Assembly (NCBI GenBank): GCA_005191425.1
Contig: SUPR01000010.1
Span: 1-32,000, forward strand
Length of the DNA: 32,000 bases
Source: Candidatus Helarchaeota ASGARD archaeon Hel_GB_B
Lineage (GTDB): Archaea > Asgardarchaeota > Lokiarchaeia > Helarchaeales > HEL-GB-B
Direction of reading: 5' to 3'
This document shows positions 6,218-28,923 of the stretch, piece after piece. The first letter of the stretch is position 1. Each line of letters starts with the position of its first letter. The translations under genes and the position numbers were made by a program. The notes below the pieces were generated by a model, which saw only the letters and a program-made list of their open reading frames with translations, ran no database searches and was not told the origin of the DNA.

Positions 6218-7621
6218 ATGATAGAAATTGAAAAATTAATACCAATTAATATAGGATTACTTGGGCATATTGACCACGGGAAAACAGCATTAGCAAGAGT
6301 ATTAAGTGAAATAATTTCAACGGCTGGATTAGATAAACATAGACAAGCTCAAGAGAGAGGGATTTCAATAGATATTGGTATAACGTCATTTATTTTGGAT
6401 AACAAATATTTAATAACGCTTGTTGATGCTCCAGGACATGCTGATTTAATTAGGAGTGTTGTTGCAGCTTCAAACATAATTGACGGTGCAATAGTCGTAA
6501 TTGCAGCTGATGAAGGACCTAAAATTCAAACAGGAGAGCACTTATTAATCCTTGAAAGTTTCAATGTAAAAAACATTGTCATTGCGTTAAATAAAATAGA
6601 TTTAGTTTCTGATTCAGTAGTTAGTTCTAGAATTAATGAAATTAAGAGAATTTTGAAAAATACAATATTTTCAAATGCACCGATCATTCCAATATCAGCA
6701 AAAACAAAGAAAGGTATAAATGAATTAAAAAAGGAACTATTAAACATAATAAAAGTACCTGAGCGGGATATATCAGGGAATTTTAAGATGCCAATAGACC
6801 ACGCATTTCAAATAAAAGGAGTTGGGACAATTATTACGGGTACAGTTCATAGGGGTATAATTAAGGTTGGTGATACTATTGAAATTATGCCAATAAAGAT
6901 TCAGAGAAAAATCAAATCAATTCAGATTTTTAAAAGGCCGGAAAATAAAGCTATTGCAGGGCAACGAGCCGGGCTTTCTATAATTAAGGCCCCCCCAAAA
7001 GAGATTTTTCGGGGGTATTATGCGAGTAGTCCAGGAAGTCTTACAATATCAGATAAAATTATAATAGAAGGAAAAATTAATAATTTATTTGAAAGGGGTT
7101 TAAAATCAAAATTACAAGTTCATTTAACAATAGGTATGCCAACAGTTTCAGGTATAATTTATCTATTCACTAAATATAATGATAAAAATATTTTAAAAGA
7201 AAAAGTATCTAAAGGTAATAAATTTCTGGCTTTTATAAAATTAAATGAGAAAATTACACTTGAAAAAGATATGCCCGTATTAATTTCAAGGCTTGATATT
7301 CCCCCAACTAAATTAAGGATAGTTGCAAGTGGAAAAGTACTGGAAATTTTGTCAGAAATACCCGAATTTTATAGATTTAAAATAAAAGAAGGTAAAGTTA
7401 GAAATATAGATAGAAAAGAGGGAGTTGTAATAGAGGGAATAAGTTCCAACGTAATTGGTGCACGAACATATATAAATAAAGTTGTAGAAACTGATAATGG
7501 CAAAAAAGGAAAAATAATTAATACATTTGGGTCAAAAGGTTCATTATTAGTTAAATTCGACAAAAAGCCAAATTTAGGTGAAAAAGTATTTTTAAAAAAC
7601 TTAAGGCGGATTAAAATTTGA
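6218..7621 (+). CDS. selB: Selenocysteine-specific translation elongation factor, archaeal type
   Basis: GLLGHIDHGKT, RGISIDIG, LVDAPGHADLI, GPKIQTGEHL, NKID, SAKT, MPIDHAFQIKGVGTIITGT, RLDIPPTKLRI. The short C-terminal domain IV (TFGSKG) resembles methanococcal SelB. Abuts SepSecS. Confidence 0.93.
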   Translation: MIEIEKLIPINIGLLGHIDHGKTALARVLSEIISTAGLDKHRQAQERGISIDIGITSFILDNKYLITLVDAPGHADLIRSVVAASNIIDGAIVVIAADEGPKIQTGEHLLILESFNVKNIVIALNKIDLVSDSVVSSRINEIKRILKNTIFSNAPIIPISAKTKKGINELKKELLNIIKVPERDISGNFKMPIDHAFQIKGVGTIITGTVHRGIIKVGDTIEIMPIKIQRKIKSIQIFKRPENKAIAGQRAGLSIIKAPPKEIFRGYYASSPGSLTISDKIIIEGKINNLFERGLKSKLQVHLTIGMPTVSGIIYLFTKYNDKNILKEKVSKGNKFLAFIKLNEKITLEKDMPVLISRLDIPPTKLRIVASGKVLEILSEIPEFYRFKIKEGKVRNIDRKEGVVIEGISSNVIGARTYINKVVETDNGKKGKIINTFGSKGSLLVKFDKKPNLGEKVFLKNLRRIKI

Positions 7622-8946
7622 TGAATATTGATAAACTTTTAAATAATTTTATACCAAAACACATGAAAGATAGAGGAATAAATGTTTTAAATGCGAATTT
7701 TTTTCCTATTAAAGATTTATTAGAGCATAGAGTAGTCCCAGAAAATAATTGGGATGAAGAAACAATAAAATTCTTTTTTAGAATTCTTTCTCAGATGGAC
7801 ACAGATAAGGACCTAAAAGGTGTTAGGGTTGGAGAAAGAGAGGCGAGGGTAGCTTCTAACTATGTGGGAAGTCTAGCTGCATTTTTTTGTCATGGTATTG
7901 GGCGAGGAGGAAGGATCATAGGTGCGCAGCCAAAAGCGCCGGGCGCCTCAATTCTTCAAAATATAGGAAATAGGTTGGCATTAGATTTTTTAAAGAAATT
8001 GGGAAACCCAGGTCTAAAAGGAGCTATTGTATTACCATTAGCAACTGGGATGTCAATTTCTTTGGCATTAGCCACAATTAGAGATGAAACAAAAAAAACA
8101 GAAATTATTTACCCGAGAGCTGATCATAGGTCGCCATTAAAAGCTATTGAATTTATTGGACTAAAACCAGTAATAATTGAAGGTATTATAAATGATCATG
8201 GTGGCGTGGAAATACCTATTGAAAATATTGAGAATGCTATTACGGATAAGACAGCGGCAATTCTCAGCACAACTTCATTTTTCCCACCACGTGAATGTGA
8301 TAATATAAAAGAAATAGCAAAAATAGCTAAAGCCAATAAAATTGGACACATAATTAATAATGCTTATGGCGCTCAAAATCAATTCTTTATGAAAAAGATC
8401 CAAGGTGCAATCGATGCTGGCAGAGTGGACGCAATAATACAAAGTACCGACAAGAACTTTTTAACACCAGTAGGTGGAGCAATAATCTCATCTCCAGATA
8501 AGGATTTTCTTGACAAAGTTACGGAGAAATATGCCGGTAGAGCATCTGCAGCCCCTATTATTCAATTTGTGGCTGCTGTCTTGAGTTTAGGGTTAAAAAG
8601 ATATTTTAATTTGCAAGAAGAACAAAAGAAGAATAGAATTCTATTGGAAAAAGAATTAAAAATAATAGCCGAAAAATACGGCGAACGCGTCTTGAAAATT
8701 GAAAATCCAATTAGTTGTGCCCTCACAATTAATACCAGAAATGCTAAAACATTTGGTGGAGTATTATATGAGTTAAGAATAACTGGGACAAGAGCAATAG
8801 AAAAAAATTCTAAATGGGGACCGAGTATAGATAATTATCCTGATAGTTATATGTCATTAAGTGCTGCAATAGGTGCTACAGAAGAAGATATACTTAAAGC
8901 ATTTGAACGAATTGATAAAGCATTTCAACAAACGAATAAAAAATAA
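7621..8946 (+). CDS. spcS: O-phosphoseryl-tRNA(Sec) selenium transferase (SepSecS)
   Basis: Motifs VGEREARV, HGIGRGG, QPKAPG, PLATGMS, TTSFFPPR, NNAYG, PLP-lysine motif QSTDKNFLTPVGG, YAGRAS. The ATG at 7621 overlaps the selB TGA. Confidence 0.95.
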   Translation: MNIDKLLNNFIPKHMKDRGINVLNANFFPIKDLLEHRVVPENNWDEETIKFFFRILSQMDTDKDLKGVRVGEREARVASNYVGSLAAFFCHGIGRGGRIIGAQPKAPGASILQNIGNRLALDFLKKLGNPGLKGAIVLPLATGMSISLALATIRDETKKTEIIYPRADHRSPLKAIEFIGLKPVIIEGIINDHGGVEIPIENIENAITDKTAAILSTTSFFPPRECDNIKEIAKIAKANKIGHIINNAYGAQNQFFMKKIQGAIDAGRVDAIIQSTDKNFLTPVGGAIISSPDKDFLDKVTEKYAGRASAAPIIQFVAAVLSLGLKRYFNLQEEQKKNRILLEKELKIIAEKYGERVLKIENPISCALTINTRNAKTFGGVLYELRITGTRAIEKNSKWGPSIDNYPDSYMSLSAAIGATEEDILKAFERIDKAFQQTNKK

Positions 8947-9000
8947 TTGGAAATTAATTGACTCAAATCATTTATTCAAATTAAATTTTATTGTTTAATT

Positions 9001-9984
9001 TTAAATTCCAACTATTTTATCATATTTAAAATCAAAAAGTATTTCTTTATTTCCTTCATACGATAAAATCAATTTTCCTTCTTCAGTTATTTCTCCACAT
9101 TCTTTAGCTATAACCCCTTTATTTCTGAAAATTTTAATGCACTGCTCCACATTTTCTTCTTTTGTAGTTGCAACTATACCAAATCCAGGATAAGCTTTTA
9201 CCCACCGCTCTATTTCAATGCCTTCTGGAATTGGTATGTCCTCAAGATTAATAATTGCACCCTTCTTTGAACTTTCTAATAACATACCCAGAGTCCCAAT
9301 ATTACCAGGATTTGAGATGTCTTTTGCTGCAGTTAATAACTTTTTTTCTGCAATTTCATTCATCGAACTACAAACATTTCGGACATATTCAGACGATTTG
9401 TGAGAAGTAGTGTCCCAAGCGTAAATAAATTTTTCATTAAAATTACCATCCAAGTCCACTGCAAAAATTATCTTATCACCTGGTTCTGCTGTGGACGAAT
9501 AAATTTCGCAACCTTTTTTGACCATTCCTAAAATTGCAACTGCAAGAGAATTTTTATCTTCATTTGGATGTAAATGCCCCCCGACCATAGGTATTTTATA
9601 TTTTTTACACCCTTCCATAATTCCTTTAATAATTTTATTGCCTATCTGATGTGAATTGATCCCTAAATTATTTACCATGACCAATGGAACTCCACCCTTA
9701 CAATAAATATCATTTGCATTGACCAAAACAGAAAAATATCCTGCTAACTCAGGGTCTGCATCTATTAATTTATACCAAATACCATCTAATGCCATTAAAA
9801 AATAATAATTATCTATATTAGGAATTTCAAAAATTGCTGAATCTTCCCCAAATGCTCCTAATATATTCGTTATACCCAAATTTAATGTTTTATTTAATGG
9901 TTTAATGATTGTCCCAACAAGGTTCTTTCTTTTAATTCCATCAAAATTCTTTATTTCATAGATTAATCCTTTTAAATTCACCAT
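9001..9984 (-). CDS. AIR-synthase-related (PurM/ThiL/HypE/SelD superfamily) protein, methanogenesis marker 2-like
   Basis: FGEDSAI, ALDGIW, AGYFSVLVNANDIYCKGG, PMVGGHLHP, AKDISNPGNIGTLGMLLE, YPGFG. Lacks the N-terminal Sec/Cys-x-x-Lys loop of SelD. Confidence 0.8.
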   Translation of the reverse strand: MVNLKGLIYEIKNFDGIKRKNLVGTIIKPLNKTLNLGITNILGAFGEDSAIFEIPNIDNYYFLMALDGIWYKLIDADPELAGYFSVLVNANDIYCKGGVPLVMVNNLGINSHQIGNKIIKGIMEGCKKYKIPMVGGHLHPNEDKNSLAVAILGMVKKGCEIYSSTAEPGDKIIFAVDLDGNFNEKFIYAWDTTSHKSSEYVRNVCSSMNEIAEKKLLTAAKDISNPGNIGTLGMLLESSKKGAIINLEDIPIPEGIEIERWVKAYPGFGIVATTKEENVEQCIKIFRNKGVIAKECGEITEEGKLILSYEGNKEILFDFKYDKIVGI

Positions 9985-10145
9985 TCATTCACTTTAGCTA
10001 TTAAATCATTCATTATAAAGAATTTATAAGATAAATTTTTAAATTATTAAAGGTAAAATCATTTATTTTTATATTTTTATCAATTGAAAATTAATTAACA
10101 AATTAATTAACAAAAATTTATAAAATTAAAATTAGTGAATAATAA

Positions 10146-11609
10146 ATGACTTCGAAAAAATTCAGTGATAAATTAAAAGATAAAACTATTACCTTAACTT
10201 TTAATGATGTTATTTTACTTCCGGGATGGACTCGAATAGAGCCAAACGAAGCAGATTTAACCACATATATTGGCCATATTCGTCTTAATTTACCTTTTAT
10301 ATCTTCGCCAATGGATACGGTTACAGAAAGCGATATGGCAATTTCATTGGCTCGAGAGGGTGGAATAGGTATAATACACAGAAACTGCTCAATTGACTAT
10401 CAAGTTGAAATGGTAAAAAAAGTAAAACGCGCTGAATCTTTTGTAATAACTGATGTAAAGACTATTTCAAAAGATATCAAAATTAAAGACGCAATCAAAA
10501 TTATGAAGACATATGGAATTAATGGACTTCCAGTTATTACTGAAGATAGAAAATTGATCGGTATTTTAACCGGTCGTGATGTGCGTTTTGCAAACCCTGA
10601 AATGAAAGTAGAAGATATTATGACAAAAGATATTATTTATGCAGAAGAAAGTATAAAGGAAGATGAAGCTAAAAAAATCCTACATAAATATAGAATTGAA
10701 AAACTTCCTGTTGTTAATAAAAATAAAGAATTGACAGGCTTAATTACATATAAAGATTTAATGTTAAAAGAAAATTTCCCTAATTCTTCAAGAGATGAAG
10801 ATGGAAAATTATTATGTGGAGCTGCAATATCGCCTACTGATATAGAACGAGCAAAAAAACTTGATGAGTGGGTTGATTTATTAGTTGTTGATGTAAGTCA
10901 TTTTTATAATAAAAATTTATTTGACGCAACTAAAAAGTTGTTAAAAACTATTAGCACACCCCTTGTTGTTGGAAGTATTGGGACATACGAATCAGCAATA
11001 GATTGCTTAACAAAATTGGATTCTATTGTAGGTCTGAGATGTGGAATTGGTAGTGGGTCGATATGTAGTACCGCTGTAGTCACAAGAGCTGGAAGCCCCA
11101 CATTATATGCTACAGCTGTTGCAGCTGATGCAGTAAAAGAAGTAGGGGCAAATGTCTCAGTAATTGCAGATGGCGGTGTAAAGAATCCAGGCGACATCGC
11201 ATTAGCCCTGGCTGTCGGCGCTAGTGCAGTAATGATGGGAAACATATTTGCTGGTACTAAAGAAAGCCCTGGAAGATTGATCAGTATTCAAGGAAGATAT
11301 TATAAAACATATTGGGGTATGGGGTCTGAAGCAGCAAGACAAAAAAGATATTCTCTTGATAGATATTCGCAACCTTCTAAAAATATCGCGGAAGGTGTTG
11401 AGGGCTATGTCCCTTTTAAAGGTAAAGTTAAGGATATTGTGGACGAATTGATAGGTGGTCTGAAAGCCTCAATGGGTTATGTAGGGGCTGCTACAATAAA
11501 AGAAATGTGGGAAAAAGCTAAACTCGCAGGAGTCTCATTTGTAGGGGCTAAAGAAATAATGCCACATGATATATTCCTTCCAGGTGGACCAGATCAAAAA
11601 ACAGAATAA
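10146..11609 (+). CDS. guaB: Inosine-5'-monophosphate dehydrogenase with CBS pair
   Basis: LTFNDVILLP, SSPMDTVTE, GGIGIIHRN, tandem CBS domains, catalytic GIGSGSIC, IADGG, GASAVMMG, GMGS, AEGVEG. Confidence 0.95.
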   Translation: MTSKKFSDKLKDKTITLTFNDVILLPGWTRIEPNEADLTTYIGHIRLNLPFISSPMDTVTESDMAISLAREGGIGIIHRNCSIDYQVEMVKKVKRAESFVITDVKTISKDIKIKDAIKIMKTYGINGLPVITEDRKLIGILTGRDVRFANPEMKVEDIMTKDIIYAEESIKEDEAKKILHKYRIEKLPVVNKNKELTGLITYKDLMLKENFPNSSRDEDGKLLCGAAISPTDIERAKKLDEWVDLLVVDVSHFYNKNLFDATKKLLKTISTPLVVGSIGTYESAIDCLTKLDSIVGLRCGIGSGSICSTAVVTRAGSPTLYATAVAADAVKEVGANVSVIADGGVKNPGDIALALAVGASAVMMGNIFAGTKESPGRLISIQGRYYKTYWGMGSEAARQKRYSLDRYSQPSKNIAEGVEGYVPFKGKVKDIVDELIGGLKASMGYVGAATIKEMWEKAKLAGVSFVGAKEIMPHDIFLPGGPDQKTE

Positions 11610-11652
11610 TTTTTTATAAATAATACCAATTATTAACATTTTGAACCGAAAA

Positions 11653-12213
11653 ATGAACAATAATTTAATTAGATATATTACATCCAGGATTAAAAATTCA
11701 AAATTTAAATGTAAAAATTGTGGTCTTTGTTGCAAAACCTCTGAAATAATGCTATCTGCAAGAGAAATCGGTGGTATTTCTTATGCATTAAATATTGAAA
11801 AAGAGGAATTCATTAAAAAATTCCTTGAATTAAAAAAAATTCATAAAACTAAAATAATAGAAAATCGTATTTATGAAATATCTGGAGAATGTTATGTTAT
11901 AAAAAAGAATAATAACGGAGATTGCCCTTTTTATATTGAAAAAGATAATAAGTCTTATTGTAATATTTATGAATATAGACCAATTGTTTGTAGATTGTTT
12001 CCATTCACTTGGGAATATTTTCCTGATACCAATTCTATTAACATTGATTATTCTGAAAACGGATGGAATAATTGTCAAGGAATTGAAAAAAATAAACAAT
12101 CGAATTGGGATGATATTAGAGATATTGTAACGGGAAATGTTATACTTTCAATGATTCAGTCCAATGAATTACAGATGAATGGAAAATTAACTCAAAAATT
12201 AAAAATTAATTAA
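11653..12213 (+). CDS. YkgJ/UPF0153 family cysteine-cluster protein
   Basis: FKCKNCGLCC, CPF, CNIYEYRPIVCRLFPF and a distal C(QG) cysteine. Confidence 0.8.
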   Translation: MNNNLIRYITSRIKNSKFKCKNCGLCCKTSEIMLSAREIGGISYALNIEKEEFIKKFLELKKIHKTKIIENRIYEISGECYVIKKNNNGDCPFYIEKDNKSYCNIYEYRPIVCRLFPFTWEYFPDTNSINIDYSENGWNNCQGIEKNKQSNWDDIRDIVTGNVILSMIQSNELQMNGKLTQKLKIN

Positions 12214-12737
12214 ACAATTTATTAAAAAATAAAATTAGAAAATCAAATCTTTTTTATATTTTTTTTAGAATATTTTAAATCCAGAATAAATATTTTTTGT
12301 GATTTTTTAGAAATTGAATTTAAAGTAAAAAACGGAAAAATTGTATATTTTAACTTTCTTTATTGAAAAATGGTTAAAAATTAAATAATAAAACTTTTTG
12401 AATAATTAGAAAAAACAGAACTAAATTTTGACTTCTTTTTTCACCATAATTTTCTTGTATATTATTGAGGGTACATTTGTTCTCTCTTAAATTCTATAAC
12501 AACCTATAAAAATATTTAGATAGAGCGCGATTTTTTTTGTTAACGAACTATTTTTTGGACTTTAGATTTACTTGACTTTGGTCTCTAAAAACGATCTTAA
12601 TTTTCTCATATAACATTGTCAACTTAAATGAGATAATAAGATATAAATAAGATTAGAGAGATAGAAATGAAAAATCAATTTTTTTAGGGGGCCATTTTTT
12701 TGTAATAAATTGATAAGGATAATAAAATTAAAAAAAA

Positions 12738-14507
12738 ATGACAAAAAATAATGAAAATATAAAAAGGGAAAAGAAAAAAAGACCTGGGCTATTTGATTTT
12801 GGTAAGCGACCGCGAAAATATATTTGGGCACTATCAATATTTGCATCAATGATAAATTTTTTCGATGGGTGGGCGACAAGCGTGATTTTATTGGCATTAC
12901 CTATAGACCAGAAATATGAAGCTGCGGAAGAGCAAACTATTTATGATTGGTTTGGATTTTCGCCTGAAAGTTTTCAAGTGGCTTTAATATTTGTAATTGG
13001 TGGACTTGGGATAGTTTCAAGTATAATTTTTAAATATTTAGCTGATAGATATGGACGTAGACCTTTATATCTAATTACTGCAACCGGTTTTATCTTTTTT
13101 ACAGTTATTACACCTTTCATTCCTGCTGGTTATGACTACTTTCCATTATTTTTACTTGTTAGATTTTTCGCAGAATTATTCTTAGCTGCTGATCTTGTTG
13201 TTGTAATTATGACCGAAGAAGCACCAGATCAAGAAAGAGGTAGACTTGTTGGAATTACAATTTCTATGAACTTTATAGGATTAGCTATGGTAGCTATCGC
13301 CCATCAGATGGGTAATATTTTTCCGATGTTATTTAAAAATAGCTGGCAATCTTTATTTTTTCTACCAGTAGTTGGATTTTTCTTTATAATTCCAATATAT
13401 TTTAAAATGAAGGAAACAAATCGATTTCTTAAAATGAAGAAATATTTGCAATGGAAGAGGAGAAAAGGGTTAAAACTTAAAAAAACAAGCTGGTTTACCC
13501 CACTAAAAAAAGAGTATTCAAGGGTATTTATGTTATGTGTGATTCCGGGTATTTGTATAACTATGTTAATGATGGTTGTATTACAATGGATGCCTTTATT
13601 CTTGGTGAATGAGCTTTTAATAGAAAACTGGGAAGTTATGATCATTCCTTTTTCTATTGTCGCATTTTTCTCGTTTTTCATTGTAACATATTTAATGGAC
13701 AAATGGGACCGCAGACAGCTGGCGATAAGAGGCTCATTAATAATGTTTATAGGCGATCTATTAGTAGCAACACCTGCACCATTCTGCCATCCTCCTCAAG
13801 GGTTGACTTTTGAAGAATATTATCTTATAAATCCAGAACTTTGCAATTTAATTTTGACACTGAGGCCATACTTAATACCACTAATAATTGCAGGTTTCTC
13901 CATTGGTGCAATTGGTGGGCCTTTAACATTAAGTGGAATTACATTGATGCCAATGGAAATGATACCTACACATATTCTTAGCACTGCACAAGGATAGTGG
14001 AATTCTTTTATTAAGTTAGCTACTATTTTATCGCCAATATTAACATTTTATGGTGCAGTTCAAATTGGTAGGACTAGTCCAGGGTCATATGGTGGTCTGA
14101 CTTTTGCTTGGTCTTATTTTGGTATCGGTATTTTTTTAGTAGCTGCAACTTTTTCAATCATTTATTTAGCTCCAGAAAGTGGAACAGCTCGTGGAAAAAT
14201 TATTGAAGAAATAATTTATGCTACAAGTCAAAAAAAATCCTTAAAAAGAGAGAGAAGCCGAAAATATGAATATTTTACTGTTATAATGAGTTTCATCATA
14301 TTTTTCTCATTAACATTTTTATATGGTCTATTTCTTGTGCCTAATTATTTCGGTTTTGATCCATTTTATCCATAACTTCAAGTCTTGGGGATATATGGGG
14401 GTATTGCAATTGCATTAATGATCCTCGTTATCTGGTCAAGAGAAAAATGGATTGGTGTTAAAGATTTTAAGAAAGATGGTGATGAAAACAAATCGACCAA
14501 AAAATGA
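12738..14507 (+). pseudogene. MFS transporter interrupted by two in-frame stops (TAG 13995-13997, TAA 14373-14375)
   Basis: MFS motif A (LADRYGRRP) and EEAPDQERG. The same frame continues past the ORF-track end (STAQG*WNSFIKLATILSP...LAPESG...FYP*LQVLGIYGGIAIALMILVIW) to TGA at 14505-14507. Confidence 0.75.
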
Positions 14508-14953
14508 AGGTAAAGCTCGTCTCAATAAATATACAGGAATTCATTTCAAAATTAACCCATTTTTTAATTTTATCGAGTCATAAGATCTACGAAATCAATT
14601 AAAATTAAAAGGAATAACTGATATCGAATCTATATCATCGAATATATTATTTATATTAGCTAATTTATTTTGAATAACTAAAATACTAAAAAATATATTA
14701 TATTAAATTATTTAATAGAAAATCTTTTCAATTTTATATCAAATATTCATTTTTTTTAATTAAAAACTAAAATTCTATCATAAAAATAAAAATTTTATAA
14801 CATTATTTATTTTTTAACTTCCTATTTGATTTTAAGTCCCTTAAAATTTGATAAAAAACTCATTTACAAGAAATTTATATATTTTTAATTATTTTAAAAA
14901 TTATAATAGATTTTAATAAGATTATAAATTTAATATGGCGTTCTGTAGCAGTG

Positions 14954-14999
14954 GCTATAGCTGTATAAGTTTATTTGAACTTATATCGCATAGCTGTAA
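14954..14999 (+). other. tRNA-Sec intron 1 (46 nt, 5' strand of D-stem, about 15/16)
   Basis: BHB: outer TA/TG (2 bp), central helix GCAG/CTGT, bulges TG^G and AA^G, inner helix CTAT/ATAG continued by hairpin TATAAGTT/AACTTATA. Cleavage at these sites restores the D-arm exactly. Confidence 0.85.
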
Positions 15000-15023
15000 G
15001 TGGTCCACGGCACCGGACTTCAA

Positions 15024-15047
15024 TATTATAAAAATTATAATGGAGAT
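15024..15047 (+). other. tRNA-Sec intron 2 (24 nt, canonical 37/38)
   Basis: BHB: outer ACCGGA/TCCGGT, central CTTC/GGAG, bulges AA^T and AT^A, inner ATTATA/TATAAT. Confidence 0.93.
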
Positions 15048-15081
15048 ATCCGGTATACTCGATAAGAGTATGGAGTTCGAT

Positions 15082-15108
15082 ATGAAAATTGGTTAATTTT
15101 CACGAAAT
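15082..15108 (+). other. tRNA-Sec intron 3 (27 nt, T-loop 59/60)
   Basis: BHB: outer GGAG/CTCC, central TTCG/CGAA, bulges AT^A and AT^T, inner TGAAAATT/AATTTTCA with GGTT loop. Restores the T-loop TTCGATT. Confidence 0.93.
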
Positions 15109-15191
15109 TCTCCCAGAACGCCGCCAACTTTATTTTATTATTTAAAATTATTTTATTATTTATGAAATTATTATCAATTCTTTTTTCAATA

Positions 15192-15714: not shown

Positions 15715-15841
15715 ATTGATTCCTCCCTTAATAATTATTTAAATTGAAATTAACATAATAATTTATTTAAAAAAATTATATATAGTGTTATTATTTAAAA
15801 TAATTAATAAAAAGACTCAAAAATTCAAATATTTTTTAGAA

Positions 15842-16992: not shown

Positions 16993-17814
16993 TTATTTTT
17001 CTTTTTTTATGGATAAAATAAACATATATATTGAAATACTTAATAATGGTATATGTAAAATTGTTATCCACCAATAATTAAGTGGGCTAATAAATACATT
17101 CATTATATTAATTAAACCGAAGATAATTCCTATGAAACTGTTAACGCGTATTGTAGGTCTATTAATTTTTGGATAAAATAACGAAATAACAGCTAAATAA
17201 ATTGGTGTTATCATGCAAAAAGCTAGTGTAGAATCTGAATATAATAAATACGATAAATTGAAATCAGGCATCCCTGTAAATCTATCTACGGGAAACCAGA
17301 ATGCCAAAAAAGCTAAAGGAATTACCCAATATCTCCATAATGGTATCTTTTCTAAAGTATAATCCATTTTGCAGCTTTTAATTTCATGGACCCAAAAGAT
17401 GCCGATTATTACCATCAAAATTAAATTTTGAGTCAAAAAAACAAGTCCATAAGTAATAGTCATTACTATATTTTGCAAAAATGCTACTAAAAAATAATTA
17501 ATGGCGACCCAGATACTGAAAAATCTTCTAAATTTATTCTTAAAAATAAAAATTCCAATGACCATCACTATAATCATAATATGTAAAATTGGTTGAATTA
17601 TTACATATGGAACCAGACCAAACATAAGAGCTTCCTTGACTATCTGATTTATTTGCGTATAGTCAAAATTCTTAGAAACAATTATTGGAATAAACATCCA
17701 AATTAATATTAATATTAAATAAAAACACCACTTTTGTGTTAATGATTCGAATAAAGATTTGTTTAATTTATTTGTTTGATCCATAAATAAATCACTTGTA
17801 TTGTATTTTATCAA
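16993..17814 (-). CDS. Uncharacterised polytopic membrane protein
   Basis: 273 aa with about 8 hydrophobic segments and motif-like stretches (PLAFLAFWFP, AFCMITPIYL, LHIPLL). Confidence 0.7.
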   Translation of the reverse strand: MIKYNTSDLFMDQTNKLNKSLFESLTQKWCFYLILILIWMFIPIIVSKNFDYTQINQIVKEALMFGLVPYVIIQPILHIMIIVMVIGIFIFKNKFRRFFSIWVAINYFLVAFLQNIVMTITYGLVFLTQNLILMVIIGIFWVHEIKSCKMDYTLEKIPLWRYWVIPLAFLAFWFPVDRFTGMPDFNLSYLLYSDSTLAFCMITPIYLAVISLFYPKINRPTIRVNSFIGIIFGLINIMNVFISPLNYWWITILHIPLLSISIYMFILSIKKEK

Positions 17815-18151: not shown

Positions 18152-19099
18152 TTAGAATATTTTAATTTTTATTGCATTTTTATCGCAAGCAGTGTAACAC
18201 TTTAAACACATTATACAATTTGATGAATCAATTCTTTGAAATGGTGTGTCCAAGATTCTGATACCCATTGGACATGCATCTTGACATATTTTACATTTTT
18301 TTCCTACACATTTGCCGGGGTCTCTCCCCAAATAAATAAGCCTGAATTTATTAAATAGACCCGTTAGTGCCCCAGTAGGACAAAAATACCTACACCAGAA
18401 TCGTGAAATATATGCACTAATAAGGAGGATTACAAGTAAAAATATTACTCTAAAAAAGAACCACGGATAAGCTAAAAATATATTCCAGACAGATCCGCCA
18501 ATACTTGTAAAAGGGGCTTCAATAATAGCAGTTGGAATTAACGAAAACAATGTATTACTTGGTGATATAGGGGCTGAAAAAATATCTACAAAAATTGAAA
18601 ATTGCGATAAATCTCGATTTGTTTCAGTTATTACCCCAGTCATTACTAAATAACCAGCCCAAACGGCTACAAATAGAGAGATAAATAAAAAAATATACTT
18701 TACTTTGTTAAAAGTTTGGTTAGTTTCTTTTGACGGTACCGTTTTATGAACAGGTAGCCAATTCATTATATCCTGGATAAGCCCAAATGGACAAACCCAC
18801 CCGCAATATCCTCTACCGAAAATGACGCCAAATATACATAAAAGCCCAATTGATAAAAACGGGAAAATTGCGTGAGAAAATTCCCATTGGATTAATTCAA
18901 AAATATTAAATGCATTCGTGTAAGGTGCTCCTATGGGCTGATTAACTGGAACAGGGATACCAATTGAAGCAGATTTAAGAGCATCAAAACCTAAGAAGAA
19001 TCCAAAAATAATTGTAATATTTCCAAACAAAATTAAAAAGAATATCTGGCTAATTAACCTTGCGCCTCGAATTATATAATTACGGTGCTTTAAGTTCAA
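18152..19099 (-). CDS. Membrane-bound 4Fe-4S binding protein (NapH/MauN-like)
   Basis: GRGYCGWVCPFG, RFWCRYFCPTG, CVGKKCKICQDACP and CIMCLKCYTAC, plus several transmembrane helices. Confidence 0.85.
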   Translation of the reverse strand: MNLKHRNYIIRGARLISQIFFLILFGNITIIFGFFLGFDALKSASIGIPVPVNQPIGAPYTNAFNIFELIQWEFSHAIFPFLSIGLLCIFGVIFGRGYCGWVCPFGLIQDIMNWLPVHKTVPSKETNQTFNKVKYIFLFISLFVAVWAGYLVMTGVITETNRDLSQFSIFVDIFSAPISPSNTLFSLIPTAIIEAPFTSIGGSVWNIFLAYPWFFFRVIFLLVILLISAYISRFWCRYFCPTGALTGLFNKFRLIYLGRDPGKCVGKKCKICQDACPMGIRILDTPFQRIDSSNCIMCLKCYTACDKNAIKIKIF

Positions 19100-20074: not shown

Positions 20075-20473
20075 ATGAATGAAGAGCCAGAAAAAAAAGA
20101 TTTCTTAACTGGACTTTTAGATAATGCAAAAGAATTCGTTGATGGAGTCACAAGACAAGTCCAAGATGTTATTGATAATTTGTTAGGCACTAAAAAAGAA
20201 GAAGGAAAAGAACCTGAAGGAATTAGCAAAATAATTAGTGATATTTGTAATGGTATTAGAGATTTACTTGGATTAAAGGGAGAAGAAGGTGAAGGGGAGA
20301 GTGAAGAAGAAGAACCTAGTGGTATTCTAAAAATAATCAAGGATATACGAAAAAATATTCAAGAAATTTTAGGACTAGAAGGCGGTTTTAATTTAGAAGA
20401 AAAAATCCGAGATATTAGAAATCAAATTAGAGAAATTTTAGGTATGGAGCCTCTTCCAGAAGAAGAGGTTTAA
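20075..20473 (+). CDS. Acidic protein with repeated amphipathic helices
   Basis: Internal repeats IISDICNGIRDLLGL / IIKDIRKNIQEILGL / KIRDIRNQIREILGM separated by Glu/Gly-rich linkers. Confidence 0.65.
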   Translation: MNEEPEKKDFLTGLLDNAKEFVDGVTRQVQDVIDNLLGTKKEEGKEPEGISKIISDICNGIRDLLGLKGEEGEGESEEEEPSGILKIIKDIRKNIQEILGLEGGFNLEEKIRDIRNQIREILGMEPLPEEEV

Positions 20474-20514
20474 AAAAAGATCATTTATATTTTTTTATTT
20501 TAAATCTAATTCGT

Positions 20515-21618
20515 TTAGTTTTCTAAATTTTTCTTAAAAAATTGATGAAATTCTTTTGGAAGTAATTTCCAATCCAGATCTTTTTTCAAAAATGGGTCAT
20601 ATGGTCTACTATTATATGTATTCCAGAATAAAATTGTTTTATTCTTCAAATTTTCTTTTTCAGAGTAATCTAATAAACCTGCAAAAGTTTTACCGGTATA
20701 TGTTGTGTCTAACTTTATATTTTCTAATTCTTTAACAATATCAACAGCTTCTTTTCCGTCTTTTGTAACATAGCCATATTCTTTTCCCATATAATCTGTT
20801 AAAATTTTTCTTTTCTTTAATTTAATATGATCAATTTTATTATTAGTATAAGCTTTTAATAATTTAAGAGTTTTTAAAGCATTTTTATGCTGAGAATAAG
20901 CACTACACCCAAACCATAGGATTTTCATAGCAACTTGGACACCTATTAAGTCGATGTCGGATAATCCTGCTAAATTTAAGCCGACATCTAGTCCTGCCAT
21001 TGTACCAACTGACCCCAATGTAACAAATATTATATCAGGTTTAGGAATTTCTCCAGCATCAATTTGTTCTTTTAACTCAAAAGCCGCATTGACATGCCCC
21101 AAATTTGTTATTGGATCTGTTCCCCCAGCCCATAATTTATAACCACCTTTAAAATTTCTAAAATAATAATTATAAGCCATTCCAAGTAGCCCTCCGCCAT
21201 ATATTAACTCACAATCAAGAGAATAGAACATTTTTAGTTTCTTTTGTACATCTAAAGTTAATGGCTGCTTCATTAAAATTAGTGATACATTAATATCTTT
21301 AATACCATTATACTTTTTTTTAGCAAAAATTGCTGTAGCTAAACAATGATTTGACCCAATTCCACCTATAGTAATAACTCTTTCATAATTTTCATGAATA
21401 AGTTTTCCAAAAGTATATTCTAATTTTCGAGGCTTATTACCACCATAAATTTCTGTTGTTAAATCATCTCTTTTCATATATAGATCAGAAAATCCAAACT
21501 TTTCTTCAATTTTTTCCAATTTGGTTATAGGTGTGGGATTATTTAATAATGGAATCCAAGGAATTTTTTCCTCCAATTCGGGGAATTTTTCGAATACATA
21601 ATTTATTGATTTTGTCAT
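20515..21618 (-). CDS. PLP-dependent D-cysteine desulfhydrase / ACC deaminase family enzyme
   Basis: PTPITKL, MKRDDL...GGNKPRKLE (PLP lysine), GGIGSNH, GSVGTMAGL, LDTTYTGK, LFWNT. Confidence 0.88.
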   Translation of the reverse strand: MTKSINYVFEKFPELEEKIPWIPLLNNPTPITKLEKIEEKFGFSDLYMKRDDLTTEIYGGNKPRKLEYTFGKLIHENYERVITIGGIGSNHCLATAIFAKKKYNGIKDINVSLILMKQPLTLDVQKKLKMFYSLDCELIYGGGLLGMAYNYYFRNFKGGYKLWAGGTDPITNLGHVNAAFELKEQIDAGEIPKPDIIFVTLGSVGTMAGLDVGLNLAGLSDIDLIGVQVAMKILWFGCSAYSQHKNALKTLKLLKAYTNNKIDHIKLKKRKILTDYMGKEYGYVTKDGKEAVDIVKELENIKLDTTYTGKTFAGLLDYSEKENLKNKTILFWNTYNSRPYDPFLKKDLDWKLLPKEFHQFFKKNLEN

Positions 21619-22430
21619 TTTTTTACCTCAAATTTGTGAACCACTATTAATTAATGTAATATGTTGCTAATTATATGTTATCTTAAATTGATTAAAATCA
21701 TTTGGACAGATAATTTAGGTAATAATTCTAAAATGTTCAATAGAGATTTAAAAGTTTTTAACTAAAATCTTTTGTGGGAAAAAATATGCGTTTTATTATT
21801 TTTAATTTAATGAGAAAAAATGTGATATATTAATCTTTAGAGCATTTGAATTTTCTGATTAACATATTAAAATTAGAAAAAAATTACATTTTTAAATATT
21901 TGATAATTTTTATTTCATTTGGGCTGAAACACTACACTACTAACTAATTAAACAATTTTTCCTGAATTTTACCAGCATTGTATTAATTCTATATTTTTTA
22001 GAAGTGTTATTTTAACTTTAATTAACCAATTATATCTTGAATATTCTTATGATTCCAAGGATTAATTTCTACTAATATAATTATTATTGAGTTATATATA
22101 AGAATCTCTAATTATTAATTGTTTTGTTATTGCTTTTATATTAAAGATGAGTTACTTTAATTTGATGTTAATATTATCCAAATCTATCAAAAGGTGGGAA
22201 TAGCCACAATGGTGATTTTTTGAAAAATTCTTAGATATAAAACTATGACCTAAAAAGCATGGAAAAAAGAAAAAAATAATATAACATTATTCAATAAAAG
22301 TTATTTGTAAAAAGTTCGTATTAGTATGTCAATTTATTTTTAAAAAAAGAATTTATTTGAGATTATGATTACCAGATTTTTAATAAAACTAAAAAAAGTT
22401 ATATTTAAACACAATTTAGGGATCTAAATA

Positions 22431-23195
22431 ATGCGAAATTTAATCATTTTTATGGGAATACCATCATCTGGAAAAACTACATTAGCAAATTTATTAGCAA
22501 AAAGGATTGAATTAAAATTTAACAAAAAAACAATGGTAATTGGGTCAGATCAAATAAGAAAAATGATCCCAATTTTGTCAGAGAAATTTTTACCCGATAG
22601 AGAAGAAATGGTGAGGACTCTAACACTTAAATTTATAGATTATGCTTTAGATTATAATGATGTTGTTATAAATGATGATATGAATTATTATAAATCAATG
22701 AGACATGATTTTTATAAAATTGCCTTAAAAAAGAACTGTAACTTTTTTCTAATAATGTTTAAAATAGATTTAGAACGCGCATTAGAATGGAATATTAAAC
22801 GAGGTATTCCTATACCCCAAGAATTAATAAAAAATGTATCAAAAAAATTCGACCCCCCTAGTGATTATTTGTGGGATCGCCCAATATTTGTAGTAAATAA
22901 TCGCGGCGAAAATCTCGAAGAAAATGTAGATAAAATACTCACGCTTCTTCAAGATAAATTAGACATTAATTTAATTGAAAAAAATAAAAAAATTAAAAAT
23001 ACACCAGGAAAGTCCGAATATTATGATAAATTGACAAGAAAAATAGTTTCTGAACTAATCCAAAAACCTGAATTTATTGATAAAAGAGAAAATATATTAA
23101 ATTTACGGAAATCTATATTAATAGAATCAATAGATAAAGATTTTGATGAACAAAAAATTAGGACTTTATTTATTAAAAAAATCAATGAACTATAA
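22431..23195 (+). CDS. pstK: L-seryl-tRNA(Sec) kinase (PSTK), archaeal type
   Basis: Walker A GIPSSGKT, GSDQIR, DDMNYYKSMR, RGIPIP, KFDPPSDYLWDRP. The C-terminal helical domain (DKLTRKIVSELI...LRK) resembles methanococcal PSTK. Confidence 0.9.
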   Translation: MRNLIIFMGIPSSGKTTLANLLAKRIELKFNKKTMVIGSDQIRKMIPILSEKFLPDREEMVRTLTLKFIDYALDYNDVVINDDMNYYKSMRHDFYKIALKKNCNFFLIMFKIDLERALEWNIKRGIPIPQELIKNVSKKFDPPSDYLWDRPIFVVNNRGENLEENVDKILTLLQDKLDINLIEKNKKIKNTPGKSEYYDKLTRKIVSELIQKPEFIDKRENILNLRKSILIESIDKDFDEQKIRTLFIKKINEL

Positions 23196-24768: not shown

Positions 24769-24778
24769 AAATATCTTT

Positions 24779-27438: not shown

Positions 27439-27553
27439 CTCTAATTTTTTAAAAAGTGATCAGAAAATTTTTGAAAAATATTTTTAATGGGTAAATCATT
27501 TATATAATTAATTAAGATTAAATGCAAATGATAAAGATGTTAAAAGTAAAACA

Positions 27554-28907: not shown

Positions 28908-28923
28908 CCGTGGGAATTATTTC

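What the first reader, a model, noticed from the sequence alone, without database searches (positions are those of the whole stretch)
6218..23195. Co-located selenocysteine machinery: selB, SepSecS, tRNA-Sec and PSTK within about 17 kb
Seen: four core Sec components are in one window, all on the plus strand. Established: in Methanococcales these genes are largely dispersed, and Lokiarchaeota are known to encode Sec. Inference: this could be a relic of an ancestral Sec gene cluster, diluted by insertions, in the lineage closest to eukaryotes. SelD, an SBP2 homologue, selenoproteins and SECIS elements were not seen here and should be elsewhere in the genome.
Basis: partly seen in the sequence, partly recalled or inferred. 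Interest (0 to 1): 0.7.

Follow-up and report, generated by a model that had tools for sequence, protein, structure and literature searches.

The report
Loosened Asgard selenocysteine locus, triple-intron tRNA-Sec
This stretch of a Helarchaeales (Asgard) genome really holds the elongation factor, the synthase, the kinase and the tRNA for selenocysteine, a kind of locus already described in Asgard archaea; its one unusual feature is a tRNA gene broken by three introns, which hides it from standard tRNA finders.

Summary
selB (6218-7621) and SepSecS (7621-8946) form an overlapping operon, PSTK is at 22431-23195, and a tRNA-Sec gene is at 14937-15126, all on the plus strand. ARAGORN and Rfam miss the tRNA because three bulge-helix-bulge introns (46, 24 and 27 nt) interrupt its D stem, anticodon loop and T loop. 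Once spliced, it is a textbook archaeal 9/4 tRNA-Sec(UCA).

The system is in use. A Sec-containing SelD lies on another contig, and four VhuD-type genes carry in-frame TGA codons.

Synteny:
- selB, SepSecS and tRNA-Sec are linked throughout Lokiarchaeia.
- PSTK is unlinked in about 95 other Lokiarchaeia genomes sampled, but lies within 7 kb of selB in four other Asgard families.
- Several "intervening" genes recur in those clusters: an AIR-synthase-like gene, a NapH-like gene, a nucleotidyltransferase-like gene and a Zn-ribbon/coiled-coil gene.

The window's gene order equals a relative's order after one inversion.

The locus type is known (Mariotti 2016; ISME J 2024), and this scan has reported compact versions in other genomes. 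The new points are the three-intron tRNA-Sec and a Zn-ribbon gene that follows selB.

The parts
6218..7621 (+). selB / aEFSec, the Sec-specific elongation factor (467 aa)
   Evidence: TIGR00475 scores 278.1 bits, above the 242 cut-off. Pfam finds GTP_EFTU, GTP_EFTU_D2 and aSelB_III. PDB 4AC9 matches at E 1.4e-101 over residues 10-464. The GHIDHGKT motif is invariant in 12 orthologues.
7621..8946 (+). spcS / SepSecS, O-phosphoseryl-tRNA(Sec) selenium transferase. The probable ATG at 7621 overlaps the selB stop codon (TGATG). The mechanical ORF starts at a TTG at 7618.
   Evidence: TIGR03531 scores 482 bits against a cut-off of 225. PDB 2Z67 matches at E 1.5e-107, and the S-x-DKN-x-LTP lysine motif is kept. 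The start-codon context was read.
9001..9984 (-). AIR-synthase-like protein (methanogenesis-marker-2 / sll0787 type). It is a conserved companion of the Sec locus and is not SelD.
   Evidence: TIGR03267 scores 361.7 bits (cut-off 365), while the SelD model scores only 46 bits (cut-off 125). It lies next to spcS/tRNA-Sec in G001, G002, G004, G005 and G006, and close by in f11, f17 and f23. It is also present in Sec-less families f16, f19, f13 and f22.
10146..14490 (+). Block between the AIR-synthase-like gene and tRNA-Sec that was not found at the Sec loci inspected outside this family (G001 has it too; an NCBI contig of the family ends in the CxxCxxCC gene): IMPDH (10146-11609), a CxxCxxCC protein (11641-12213), and an MFS transporter (12738 to about 14490) broken by two in-frame stops.
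   Evidence: The block is absent from the Sec loci of G002-G006 and of the other classes. In the MFS gene, G000 has TAG at 13995-13997 and TAA near 14374 where G001 has TGG and CAA.
14937..15126 (+). tRNA-Sec(UCA) gene: a 190-nt precursor that gives a 93-nt mature tRNA including the encoded CCA. Exons are 14937-14953, 15000-15023, 15048-15081 and 15109-15126.
   Evidence: ARAGORN calls the spliced sequence tRNA-SeC(tca) but not the precursor. The spliced sequence is 78-83% identical to intron-less 93-nt orthologues of G002, G004 and G006. All 32 stem pairs fit the 9/7/6/6/4 layout, with compensatory changes across 8 orthologues. The precursor folds at -69.9 kcal/mol, z = -6.75. It carries the only tRNA-Sec anticodon-arm signature in the genome.
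14954..14999 (+). Intron 1 (46 nt), in the 5' strand of the D stem. Relaxed BHB motif.
   Evidence: Central helix GCAG/CUGU, bulges UG|G and AA|G, inner helix CUAU/AUAG. G001 has CUAA/UUAG there, a compensatory change. The outer helix is only 2 bp. An intron occupies the same position in G086, G052, G040, G031 and G092.
15024..15047 (+). Intron 2 (24 nt), at the canonical 37/38 position. Canonical hBHBh' motif.
   Evidence: Central helix CUUC/GGAG, bulges AA|U and AU|A, outer helix 6 bp, inner helix 7 bp. The intron is absent from G004 and G006, which fixes its borders.
15082..15108 (+). Intron 3 (27 nt), in the T loop at 59/60. Canonical hBHBh' motif.
   Evidence: Central helix UUCG/CGAA, bulges AU|A and AU|U, outer helix formed by the T stem (4 bp), inner helix 8 bp. 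An intron sits at the same position, with the same ATGAAAA start, in family f4. Lokiarchaeum has a T-loop intron (PMC4989117).
15785..17814 (.). Material found only in G000: a HEPN (15785-16228) / nucleotidyltransferase (16206-16637) pair and an unknown ORF at 16993-17814 (-).
   Evidence: Pfam finds HEPN at 101 bits and Polbeta/NTP_transf_2. tblastn finds no counterpart in the G001 locus.
18152..19099 (-). NapH-like membrane polyferredoxin, a conserved companion of the Sec locus.
   Evidence: Pfam finds Fer4_5 twice plus Fer4, and TIGR02163 (napH) scores 80 bits, below its cut-off. Homologues lie directly beside selB in six f11 loci and near the locus in G001, G003 and G005.
20075..21618 (.). 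Unknown 132-aa ORF (20075-20473, +) and a PLP-dependent D-cysteine-desulfhydrase/ACC-deaminase-like gene (20515-21618, -), found at this locus only in this family.
   Evidence: Pfam finds PALP, and TIGR01275 scores 166 bits, below its cut-off. Both are present in G001 and on NCBI contig WJJF01000301. Neither is found at the Sec loci of other families.
22431..23195 (+). [quoted passage not shown]
   Evidence: KTI12 scores 115.8 bits, and TIGR03574 scores 156.7 bits, below its 290.5 cut-off. M. jannaschii PSTK 3ADB matches at E 9e-31 over residues 4-235. The only other, weak KTI12-model match in the genome is a 184-aa ORF at 36.5 bits. Its family-level distribution across Asgard matches that of SelB. 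Walker A and Walker B are conserved, and the RxxxR motif reads WNxxR in all 15 Asgard orthologues aligned.
23199..24218 (-). Nucleotidyltransferase-like protein of unknown function (339 aa), a conserved tail-to-tail neighbour of pstK.
   Evidence: Pfam gives only a weak Polbeta/NTP_transf_2 hit. It is adjacent to PSTK in G001-G006, f12, f17 and f23. Orthologues at E around 1e-85 also occur in Sec-less families f13, f19 and f25.
24325..25782 (.). Three small unknown ORFs (24325-24768 +, 24779-25396 -, 25393-25782 -) that travel with the Zn-ribbon gene within the order.
   Evidence: tblastn finds them in G001, G002, G004 and G005 next to the Zn-ribbon gene. They have no Pfam family above cut-off.
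26668..27958 (+). Zn-ribbon + CdvA-like coiled-coil protein (26668-27438, 256 aa) and its 134-aa partner (27554-27958).
   Evidence: The gene lies within 2 kb of selB, mostly divergent, in most f4/f5 genomes where both genes are assembled on one contig. In G092 each of the two selB copies has its own copy of the gene. It lies within 4.5 kb in f2, f3, f11 and f17. The structure model has pLDDT 84. Its best structural match is CdvA 9s9g, with Z 13.4 and rmsd 1.6 over 124 residues. The family also occurs in Sec-less families.
28143..30212 (.). TatD-like hydrolase (28143-28907 +), an unknown 138-aa ORF (28924-29340 -) and ThiD (29430-30212 +). These form the ancestral flank of pstK.
   Evidence: They lie directly beside PSTK in G002, G004 and G005. 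TatD flanks PSTK in G003 and G054, ThiD flanks it in f23, and the 138-aa ORF lies near it in f11.

Best explanation
The window carries the working selenocysteine (Sec) charging and delivery genes of a Helarchaeales-type Lokiarchaeia archaeon.

Inferred pathway, taken from the established archaeal/eukaryal route:
1. The tRNA-Sec precursor is cut at three bulge-helix-bulge motifs by the splicing endonuclease and religated.
2. SerRS charges the mature tRNA with serine.
3. PSTK phosphorylates Ser-tRNA(Sec).
4. SepSecS, using selenophosphate from the Sec-containing SelD encoded on another contig, converts it to Sec-tRNA(Sec).
5. SelB delivers it to UGA codons of selenoprotein mRNAs.

selB and spcS are translationally coupled: the sequence reads TGATG at the junction.

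The 17-kb co-location is not chance. It is a loosened, internally inverted and insertion-diluted version of a gene neighbourhood shared by several Asgard classes. That neighbourhood also holds an AIR-synthase-like gene, a NapH-like gene, a nucleotidyltransferase-like gene and a Zn-ribbon/coiled-coil gene of unknown role.

Shown here: gene identities, the exon/intron structure and its splicing motifs, synteny, and the presence of SelD and of UGA-containing genes. Inferred: that splicing and each enzymatic step actually occur, and that linkage was retained rather than regained.
For: Gene identities.

tRNA-Sec:
- The 9-bp acceptor stem, G73 and CCA are visible in the sequence.
- Intron-less orthologues fix the exon borders.
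- ARAGORN calls the spliced form tRNA-SeC.
- 32 stem pairs are kept with compensatory changes.
- Exons are 92/93 identical between G000 and G001, whereas the introns are 67-86% identical. All three introns give 3-4-3 BHB motifs in both genomes.
- Two EndA-domain genes are present in the genome.

System in use:
- SelD carries an in-frame TGA.
- 4 of 11 FlpD/VhuD-family matches carry 1-2 in-frame TGA codons.

PSTK rather than Kti12:
- The best PDB hits are PSTK structures only.
- It is the only full-length gene of the family in the genome; the one other KTI12-model match is a weak hit to a 184-aa ORF.
- Its family-level presence and absence across 151 Asgard genomes matches SelB.

Linkage:
- selB-spcS are adjacent in 7 of 7 genomes of the order and 3-7 kb apart in f4.
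- tRNA-Sec sits beside spcS in every Lokiarchaeia locus inspected outside this family (14 of 14); in G000 and G001 it lies 3.5-6 kb away.
- PSTK lies within 7 kb of selB in f11 (15 of 22), f23 (5 of 6), f20 (3 of 3) and f17 (2 of 3).
- The same layout is found in G001 and on NCBI contig WJJF01000301.
- Inverting one block of the G005 order reproduces the window's order exactly.
Against: - PSTK scores below the curated TIGR03574 cut-off, and its RxxxR motif reads WNxxR. This holds for all Asgard orthologues aligned, so it looks lineage-typical.
- In about 95 other Lokiarchaeia genomes sampled, PSTK is on another contig or more than 300 kb away. Retention in this family alone therefore requires at least two independent separations elsewhere.
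- The SelB+SepSecS tree does not resolve the order of the families.
- No RNA data show that the three introns are removed.
- The D-arm intron has only a 2-bp outer helix.
- The D stem of the mature tRNA carries an A·G mismatch at its third pair, shared with G001 and G003.
Confidence: 0.8

Rival explanations
1. Secondary re-association. PSTK had already left the Sec core locus in the common ancestor of Lokiarchaeia, and in this one family a later rearrangement brought the PSTK locus and the selB-spcS-tRNA-Sec locus back together. On this reading the co-location is derived, not a relic.
For: - All other Lokiarchaeia sampled (f2-f6, about 95 genomes) have PSTK unlinked.
- In f2 and f3 the two loci each keep their own conserved flanks: ZnR...AIRS-tRNA-spcS-selB on one side, and the 23199-type gene-PSTK-TatD-138 aa-ThiD on the other.
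- In f2, f3 and G054 (f5), PSTK sits directly beside TatD.
Against: - A random rearrangement places PSTK within 15 kb of selB with a probability of about 1%.
- The window's order is reached from a contiguous version of the G005 order by a single inversion. G005 has both halves on one contig in exactly the predicted polarity.
- Outgroup families f17 and f23 have the two halves contiguous.
Confidence: 0.25
2. The co-location is coincidental and the genes between the Sec components carry no signal.
For: - About 14 kb of unrelated-looking genes separate spcS from pstK: IMPDH, an MFS transporter, a HEPN/NTase pair and a PLP enzyme.
- The companion families also occur in Sec-less Asgard lineages.
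Against: - The chance expectation is below 1% per gene.
- The layout is shared by G001 and an independent NCBI contig.
- Eight further genes in the window, besides the four Sec genes, recur around Sec genes in f11, f17 and f23.
Confidence: 0.03
3. The KTI12-like gene at 22431-23195 is an Elongator-associated Kti12 homologue rather than PSTK, so only three Sec components are co-located.
For: It scores below the NCBIfam PSTK cut-off (157 bits against 290), and the best Pfam family is named KTI12. The first arginine of the RxxxR motif is replaced by tryptophan.
Against: - The PDB search returns PSTK structures (E 9e-31, full length including the C-terminal domain) and no Kti12 entry at E<=0.001.
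- SepSecS needs a Sep-tRNA(Sec) donor, and the genome's only other KTI12-model match is a weak hit (36.5 bits) to a 184-aa ORF.
- The gene is found in every Asgard family that has SelB and in none of the 20 families that lack it.
- It lies next to tRNA-Sec in f11.
Confidence: 0.04
4. The tRNA-like sequence is a decayed pseudogene disrupted by insertions, and a functional tRNA-Sec lies in the unassembled 6% of the genome.
For: Standard tools do not call it, the genome is 94% complete, and no expression data are available.
Against: - Exons are 92/93 identical to G001 while the inserts have diverged. Each insert keeps a 3-4-3 BHB motif in both genomes, with a compensatory change in one helix.
- The same insert positions are used in f4 genomes.
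- ARAGORN finds only 6 tRNAs in the whole genome, so interrupted tRNA genes are the rule here.
Confidence: 0.03

Closest known systems
Lokiarchaeum GC14_75 Sec machinery (Mariotti et al. 2016, PMC4989117)
   Same: Both have archaeal-type tRNA-Sec (9/4 fold, 7-bp D stem, UCA, G73), PSTK, SepSecS, aSelB and a Sec-containing SelD. Both have a T-loop intron in tRNA-Sec and keep tRNA-Sec on the same contig as EFsec.
   Different: In Lokiarchaeum the genes were on distinct contigs except EFsec and tRNA-Sec, and the tRNA had one 31-nt intron. Here all four lie within 17 kb, selB and spcS overlap, and the tRNA has three introns (D stem, 37/38, T loop).
Asgard-wide Sec-encoding systems and their gene neighbourhoods (Huang/Zhang et al., ISME J 2024, PMC11227280; Sun et al. 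2021, PMC9723677)
   Same: The component set is the same. That work also reports that an Asgard-only hypothetical protein is often found near secS, efSec and pstk, and describes odd insertions in some Lokiarchaeia tRNA-Sec genes.
   Different: Those papers do not, in the text I could read, describe the selB-adjacent Zn-ribbon/CdvA-like gene, the gene-order relation between families, or a three-intron tRNA-Sec. I could not trace their example accession (MBD3157761.1) to any gene in this window.
Compact PSTK | tRNA-Sec | orf216 | SepSecS | SelB clusters of family f11 (probably Thorarchaeia) and related f17, f23 and f20 clusters
   Same: They contain the same four Sec genes plus the AIR-synthase-like, NapH-like, Zn-ribbon and 134-aa companions, all within 9-13 kb.
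   Different: In those clusters the four genes span 4-10 kb and an additional roughly 216-aa gene follows spcS. In this genome that gene has only a partial match, on another contig. Here the four genes span 17 kb, with one inversion and about 10 kb of unrelated genes.
Multi-intron tRNA genes of Asgard archaea (bioRxiv 10.64898/2026.10.13.758758) and of Thermoproteales
   Same: Several BHB introns occur in one gene, D-arm introns are missed by annotators, and T-arm introns have canonical motifs.
   Different: That census treats tRNA genes in general and focuses on Atabeyarchaeia and Freyarchaeia. A tRNA-Sec with three introns is not described in the text I searched. Published intron-bearing tRNA-Sec genes have one intron each (Lokiarchaeum, Daphnia; PMC5330540).
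Methanococcales / Methanopyrus Sec machinery
   Same: The pathway is the same. The closest solved structures for SelB, SepSecS and PSTK come from Methanococcus and Methanocaldococcus.
   Different: By established knowledge the genes are dispersed there and tRNA-Sec has no introns. The PSTK RxxxR motif is RNIER there and WNxxR here.

Membership tests
Archaeal SelB (aEFSec) | Score above the curated equivalog cut-off, and presence of the archaeal SelB domain III | tested here: met
   TIGR00475 scores 278.1 bits against 242.25, and PF21440 aSelB_III scores 64 bits against 19.
Archaeal SelB (aEFSec) | Four-domain, full-length similarity to a solved archaeal SelB, with an intact GTP-binding P-loop | tested here: met
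   4AC9 matches at E 1.4e-101, residues 10-464 against 20-480. GHIDHGKT is invariant in the alignment.
SepSecS | Score above the curated cut-off, and the PLP-binding lysine motif | tested here: met
   TIGR03531 scores 482 bits against 224.85. The motif iiqSTDKNfLTP aligns to vvsSSDKNlLTP of 2Z67.
PSTK | Score above the curated NCBIfam equivalog cut-off | tested here: not met
   TIGR03574 scores 156.7 bits against 290.5. The Asgard orthologues aligned are only 27-58% identical to the query.
PSTK | Walker A, Walker B and RxxxR motifs of the kinase domain | tested here: inconclusive
   Walker A (GIPSSGKT) and Walker B (VINDDMNYY) are present. The RxxxR position reads WNIKR, and reads WNxxR in all 15 Asgard orthologues aligned.
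PSTK | Full-length likeness to a solved PSTK, including the C-terminal tRNA-binding domain, rather than to Kti12 | tested here: met
   3ADB and 3A4L match at E around 1e-30 over residues 4-235. No Kti12 chain is returned at E<=0.001.
PSTK | Co-occurrence with the rest of the Sec pathway | tested here: met
   The gene is present in f4, f5, f11, f12, f17, f20 and f23, exactly the families that have SelB. It is absent from the 20 sampled families without SelB.
Archaeal tRNA-Sec | UCA anticodon, G73, 9-bp acceptor stem with 4-bp T stem, 7-bp D stem with 4-nt D loop, and a long variable arm | tested here: met
   All features are present in the spliced 93-mer. The D stem has one A·G mismatch, at pair 14:27.
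Archaeal tRNA-Sec | Rfam RF01852 gathering score on the genomic sequence | tested here: not met
   The window gives no hit even at E<=10, and no hit in the genome exceeds the cut-off. The three introns explain this. The spliced sequence could not be passed to the Rfam tool.
Archaeal BHB (splicing-endonuclease) introns | Two 3-nt bulges separated by a 4-bp helix, with cleavage at the same place in each bulge, flanked by helices | tested here: met
   All three introns show this in both G000 and G001. Introns 2 and 3 are canonical hBHBh'. Intron 1 has only a 2-bp outer helix, which is a relaxed form.
Archaeal BHB (splicing-endonuclease) introns | Removal from the transcript | not testable with these tools
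   No RNA run is listed for this DNA.
SelD (selenophosphate synthetase), considered for 9001-9984 | Score above the curated SelD cut-off | tested here: not met
   TIGR00476 scores 46.4 bits against 125. The best family is methanogenesis marker 2 at 361.7 bits against 365. The true SelD is on contig C31.
CdvA, considered for 26668-27438 | CdvA helical domain fold | tested here: inconclusive
   VIA-align gives Z 13.4, rmsd 1.6 Å and 124 aligned residues to 9s9g, against 10.5 for the next entry. Foldseek gives probability 0.99 but E of about 1. Pfam CdvA scores 17.9 bits against a cut-off of 30. The PRC-barrel N-terminus of CdvA is replaced by a zinc ribbon.

The most novel reading that the evidence does not exclude
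The Zn-ribbon/CdvA-like coiled-coil gene at 26668-27438 is an unrecognised archaeal factor of Sec decoding, for example an adaptor between SelB, the ribosome and the 3'-UTR SECIS. That would make it a functional stand-in for the SBP2 that archaea lack.

The case for this rests on its position. It sits divergently beside selB in most Lokiarchaeales genomes where both genes are assembled on one contig. It is duplicated together with selB in one genome. It stays near selB in three further family-level lineages.

The evidence does not exclude this reading. Against it, related genes also occur in Sec-less Asgard lineages.
Probability: 0.1. Interest if true: 0.8.

Novelty: new member of a known kind. 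Interest (0 to 1): 0.35.

Why it matters
- The locus confirms that a Helarchaeales genome has a complete selenocysteine system that is in use.
- It places this locus in a phylum-wide picture: a Sec gene neighbourhood shared by several Asgard classes, compact in some and stretched or split in others.
- The practical lesson is that tRNA-Sec genes, and apparently most tRNA genes of this genome, are invisible to ARAGORN and Rfam because of multiple introns. Surveys that score the Sec trait by tRNA-Sec detection will therefore under-count it in such lineages.
- The recurrent selB neighbour of unknown function is a concrete candidate to test in the open question of how archaeal SelB finds 3'-UTR SECIS elements.

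Tried and rejected
- ARAGORN, Rfam at gathering thresholds, Rfam at E<=10, and RF01852 over the whole genome all failed to find the tRNA-Sec. It was found by reading the longest gene-free gap.
- AIR-synthase-like gene as a hidden SelD: rejected on score. It also occurs in Sec-less families and is missing from Sec-positive family f5.
- Selenoprotein genes inside the window: no TGA-bridged reading frame of coding quality was found.
- My first reading, that PSTK co-location is purely derived, rested on the class-level data. I revised it after the phylum-level searches and locus inspection.
- A SelB+SepSecS maximum-likelihood tree, built to order the families, has deep nodes at 27-50% support and was unusable.
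- The roughly 216-aa gene that follows spcS in f11, f17 and f23 has no homologue in the window. The ORF at 3989-4666 is unrelated (hhalign probability 0.03). The genome has only a partial hit, on contig C118.
- The accession MBD3157761.1 named in PMC11227280 could not be found in that paper's supplements. I therefore cannot say which window gene, if any, it matches.
- The in-frame TAG in the MFS gene is not pyrrolysine. G001 has TGG at that site and no PylS is present in the genome.
- Expression: no RNA holder was listed.
- Complex prediction for SelB with the Zn-ribbon protein's coiled-coil part gave no verdict.
- Foldseek against the PDB for the Zn-ribbon model gave no match at E<=0.001.
- The earlier-findings index has nothing resembling the Zn-ribbon protein.

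Full report
**What is in the window.** The window is the first 32 kb of contig C9 of a 3.54-Mb, 94%-complete genome with 27% G+C. Close homologues of its proteins are labelled Candidatus Helarchaeota or Lokiarchaeota, and a Gtr1/RagA-type GTPase sits at 288-1217. Earlier notes of this scan on the same genome also call it Helarchaeales.

**The three protein components.**
- SelB (6218-7621) passes the curated equivalog cut-off and carries the archaeal SelB domain III. It matches M. maripaludis SelB 4AC9 over its full length.
- SepSecS passes its cut-off by a factor of two. It keeps the DKN lysine motif aligned to 2Z67. Its likely ATG at 7621 overlaps the selB stop codon as TGATG, the usual sign of translational coupling.
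- The gene at 22431-23195 is a KTI12/PSTK-family P-loop kinase. It misses the NCBIfam PSTK cut-off (157 bits against 290), but several things point to PSTK:
  - Its best solved relatives are PSTK structures of M. jannaschii, matched over the full length.
  - The only other KTI12-model match in the genome is a weak one (36.5 bits) to a 184-aa ORF on another contig.
  - Across 151 Asgard genomes it is found in exactly the families that have SelB, and in none of the 20 families that lack it.
  - The RxxxR motif reads WNxxR in all 15 Asgard orthologues I aligned, so the low score reflects lineage divergence, not decay.

**The tRNA-Sec.** ARAGORN and Rfam report no tRNA in the window, even at E<=10, and RF01852 finds nothing above cut-off in the whole genome. 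Reading the 1.8-kb gene-free gap showed GGCGUUCUG...CAGAACGCC-G-CCA at 14937-15126.

- A DNA search in relatives returned orthologues. G004 and G006 have uninterrupted 93-nt tRNA-Sec genes, G003 has only an anticodon-loop intron, and G001 (same genus) has the same three inserts as the window.
- Removing 14954-14999, 15024-15047 and 15082-15108 gives a 93-nt sequence that ARAGORN calls tRNA-SeC(tca). The precursor is not called.
- All 32 stem pairs of a 9/7/6/6/4 cloverleaf are kept over eight orthologues, with many compensatory changes. The only exceptions are two mismatched D-stem positions: A·G at pair 14:27 in G000 and G001 (G003, outside this set, has A·G at the same pair, read by eye), and A·C at 15:26 in G006.
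- Exons are 92/93 identical between G000 and G001, while the three inserts are 67-86% identical. Each insert forms a 3-nt bulge / 4-bp helix / 3-nt bulge motif in both genomes, with a compensatory change in the inner helix of the D-arm intron.
- Introns 2 (37/38) and 3 (T loop, 59/60) are canonical. Intron 1 (D stem) has only a 2-bp outer helix.
- The genome has two splicing-endonuclease catalytic-domain genes.
- The D-arm and T-loop positions are also used in family f4, where genes with zero, one or two introns occur. Three introns were seen only in this genus.
- ARAGORN finds just 6 tRNAs in the whole genome. This fits a recent preprint on heavily interrupted Asgard tRNA genes (10.64898/2026.10.13.758758).
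- Published intron-bearing tRNA-Sec genes have one intron each (PMC4989117, PMC5330540).

**Is the system alive?** SelD lies at the end of contig C31 with an in-frame TGA in HG-U-SCK. Four of eleven FlpD/VhuD-family matches have one or two in-frame TGA codons. Earlier notes of this scan list further HdrA/VhuD selenoproteins in this genome. The window itself holds no TGA-bridged gene.

**Synteny within the class.** I searched 100 Lokiarchaeia genomes.
- SepSecS, SelB and PSTK are nearly universal.
- selB and spcS are adjacent and co-directional in all seven genomes of the order. In family f4 they are 3-7 kb apart and divergent, and in f5 they are unlinked.
- tRNA-Sec sits right beside spcS in every locus I fetched outside this genus; in G000 and G001 it lies 3.5-6 kb from spcS.
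- PSTK is on another contig or more than 300 kb away in all genomes except G000 and G001. In G001 the end of contig C3 and the start of C38 join through the PLP-enzyme gene. An independent NCBI contig, WJJF01000301, shows the same PSTK-side layout.
- In the other genomes of the order, PSTK keeps its own flank (the 23199-type gene, TatD, a 138-aa ORF and ThiD), and the core keeps another (three small ORFs, the Zn-ribbon gene, a 134-aa ORF and the AIR-synthase-like gene).

Taken alone, this looked like a secondary merger of two loci.

**Synteny across the phylum changed that reading.** Notes from earlier windows pointed to compact four-gene clusters in other Asgard classes, and I tested this.
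- PSTK lies within 7 kb of selB in f11 (15 of 22 genomes that have both), f23 (5 of 6), f20 (3 of 3, adjacent) and f17 (2 of 3). It is about 22 kb away in f12.
- Fetched loci show PSTK > < tRNA-Sec < orf216 < spcS < selB in f11, followed by homologues of the window's NapH-like gene (18152-19099), AIR-synthase-like gene (9001-9984), 134-aa ORF (27554-27958) and Zn-ribbon gene (26668-27438).
- In f23 the order is ThiD - PSTK - 23199-type gene (two copies) - selB - spcS - tRNA-Sec - AIR-synthase-like gene.

So most of the window between 6.2 and 30.2 kb is made of genes that surround the Sec genes in other classes.

- The order on the G005 contig is [selB spcS tRNA AIRS NapH 134aa' ZnR' ... 24325'] - 300 kb - [23199-type PSTK' TatD 138aa' ThiD].
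- Inverting the block from the 134-aa ORF to PSTK in a contiguous version of that order gives exactly the window's order.
- I therefore favour retention of an ancestral contiguous neighbourhood, followed by one inversion and insertions, at about 0.7. The inserted material is IMPDH, the CxxCxxCC gene, the MFS gene, the HEPN/nucleotidyltransferase pair, an unknown ORF and the PLP enzyme.
- Re-association gets about 0.25. The gene tree I built could not order the families, so this remains an inference.

**The companions are not Sec-specific.** Three of the companion families were searched across the phylum. The AIR-synthase-like, 23199-type and Zn-ribbon families all occur in Asgard families without SelB or PSTK, and the first is missing from Sec-positive f5. 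They may be passengers of an old synteny block.

The Zn-ribbon gene stands out for how tightly it follows selB.
- It is within 2 kb, mostly divergent at about 170 bp, in most f4/f5 genomes where both genes are on one contig.
- In G092, each of the two selB copies has its own copy of the gene.
- It is within 4.5 kb in f2, f3, f11 and f17.
- Its model (pLDDT 84) is a zinc ribbon, a disordered linker and a helical domain. The best structural match for the helical domain is S. islandicus CdvA, with Z 13.4 and rmsd 1.6 Å over 124 residues. That is borderline for an all-helical fold.

Its function is unknown, and I list it as the novel case at low probability.

**Verdict.** The locus is a new member of a known kind: the Asgard Sec-encoding system (PMC4989117, PMC9723677, PMC11227280), of which this scan has already reported compact versions in other genomes. 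The additions here are the three-intron tRNA-Sec, the phylum-wide gene-order picture, and the selB-tracking Zn-ribbon gene.

Noticed in passing
window 12738-14490 (+): The MFS transporter ORF (12738-13997) continues in frame for about 165 more codons that are 78% identical to G001. G000 has TAG at 13995-13997 where G001 has TGG, and TAA near 14374 where G001 has CAA. The gene looks like a recently inactivated 14-TM-type MFS transporter, or the assembly has errors at these two sites. It is not pyrrolysine recoding, because the genome has no PylS.
   Followed up: yes
whole genome G000: ARAGORN, with intron search on, finds only 6 tRNA genes in this 3.5-Mb, 94%-complete genome. Most tRNA genes are probably interrupted at non-canonical positions, like the tRNA-Sec.
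   Followed up: partly
window 26668-27438 (+) and relatives (L034-L044, L063-L073): This Zn-ribbon + coiled-coil protein has a helical domain that superposes on Sulfolobus CdvA (Z 13.4). It also contains two SHOCT-like 'GE(I/V)SExEY...KL' repeats. The family is found in 118 of 151 Asgard genomes, a group usually described as lacking CdvA.
   Followed up: partly
window 15785-16637 (+): Overlapping HEPN and minimal nucleotidyltransferase genes form a toxin-antitoxin-like pair. Together with the unknown ORF at 16993-17814 (-), they are present in G000 but absent from the same locus in G001.
   Followed up: partly
window 288-1217 (-): A Gtr1/RagA-family small GTPase (Pfam, 107 bits), a eukaryote-like signature protein typical of Asgard archaea.
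   Followed up: no
G092:C1:771891-774836 and 1149052-1152832: One complete Lokiarchaeales genome carries two selB genes, and each is paired with its own copy of the Zn-ribbon gene. Only one SepSecS was found.
   Followed up: no
L065:4770-5420 (-), L069:11529-12209 (+), L067:6469-7167 (-): A gene of about 216-232 aa with no known family directly follows spcS in f11, f17 and f23 (alignment A2). G000 has only a partial match, at C118:31829-32107.
   Followed up: partly
The SelB of this Helarchaeales genome is more similar to those of other Asgard classes (52-55% identity to f20 and f23) than to family f4 of its own class (42-47%). In the SelB+SepSecS tree, f4 sits on a long branch.
   Followed up: no
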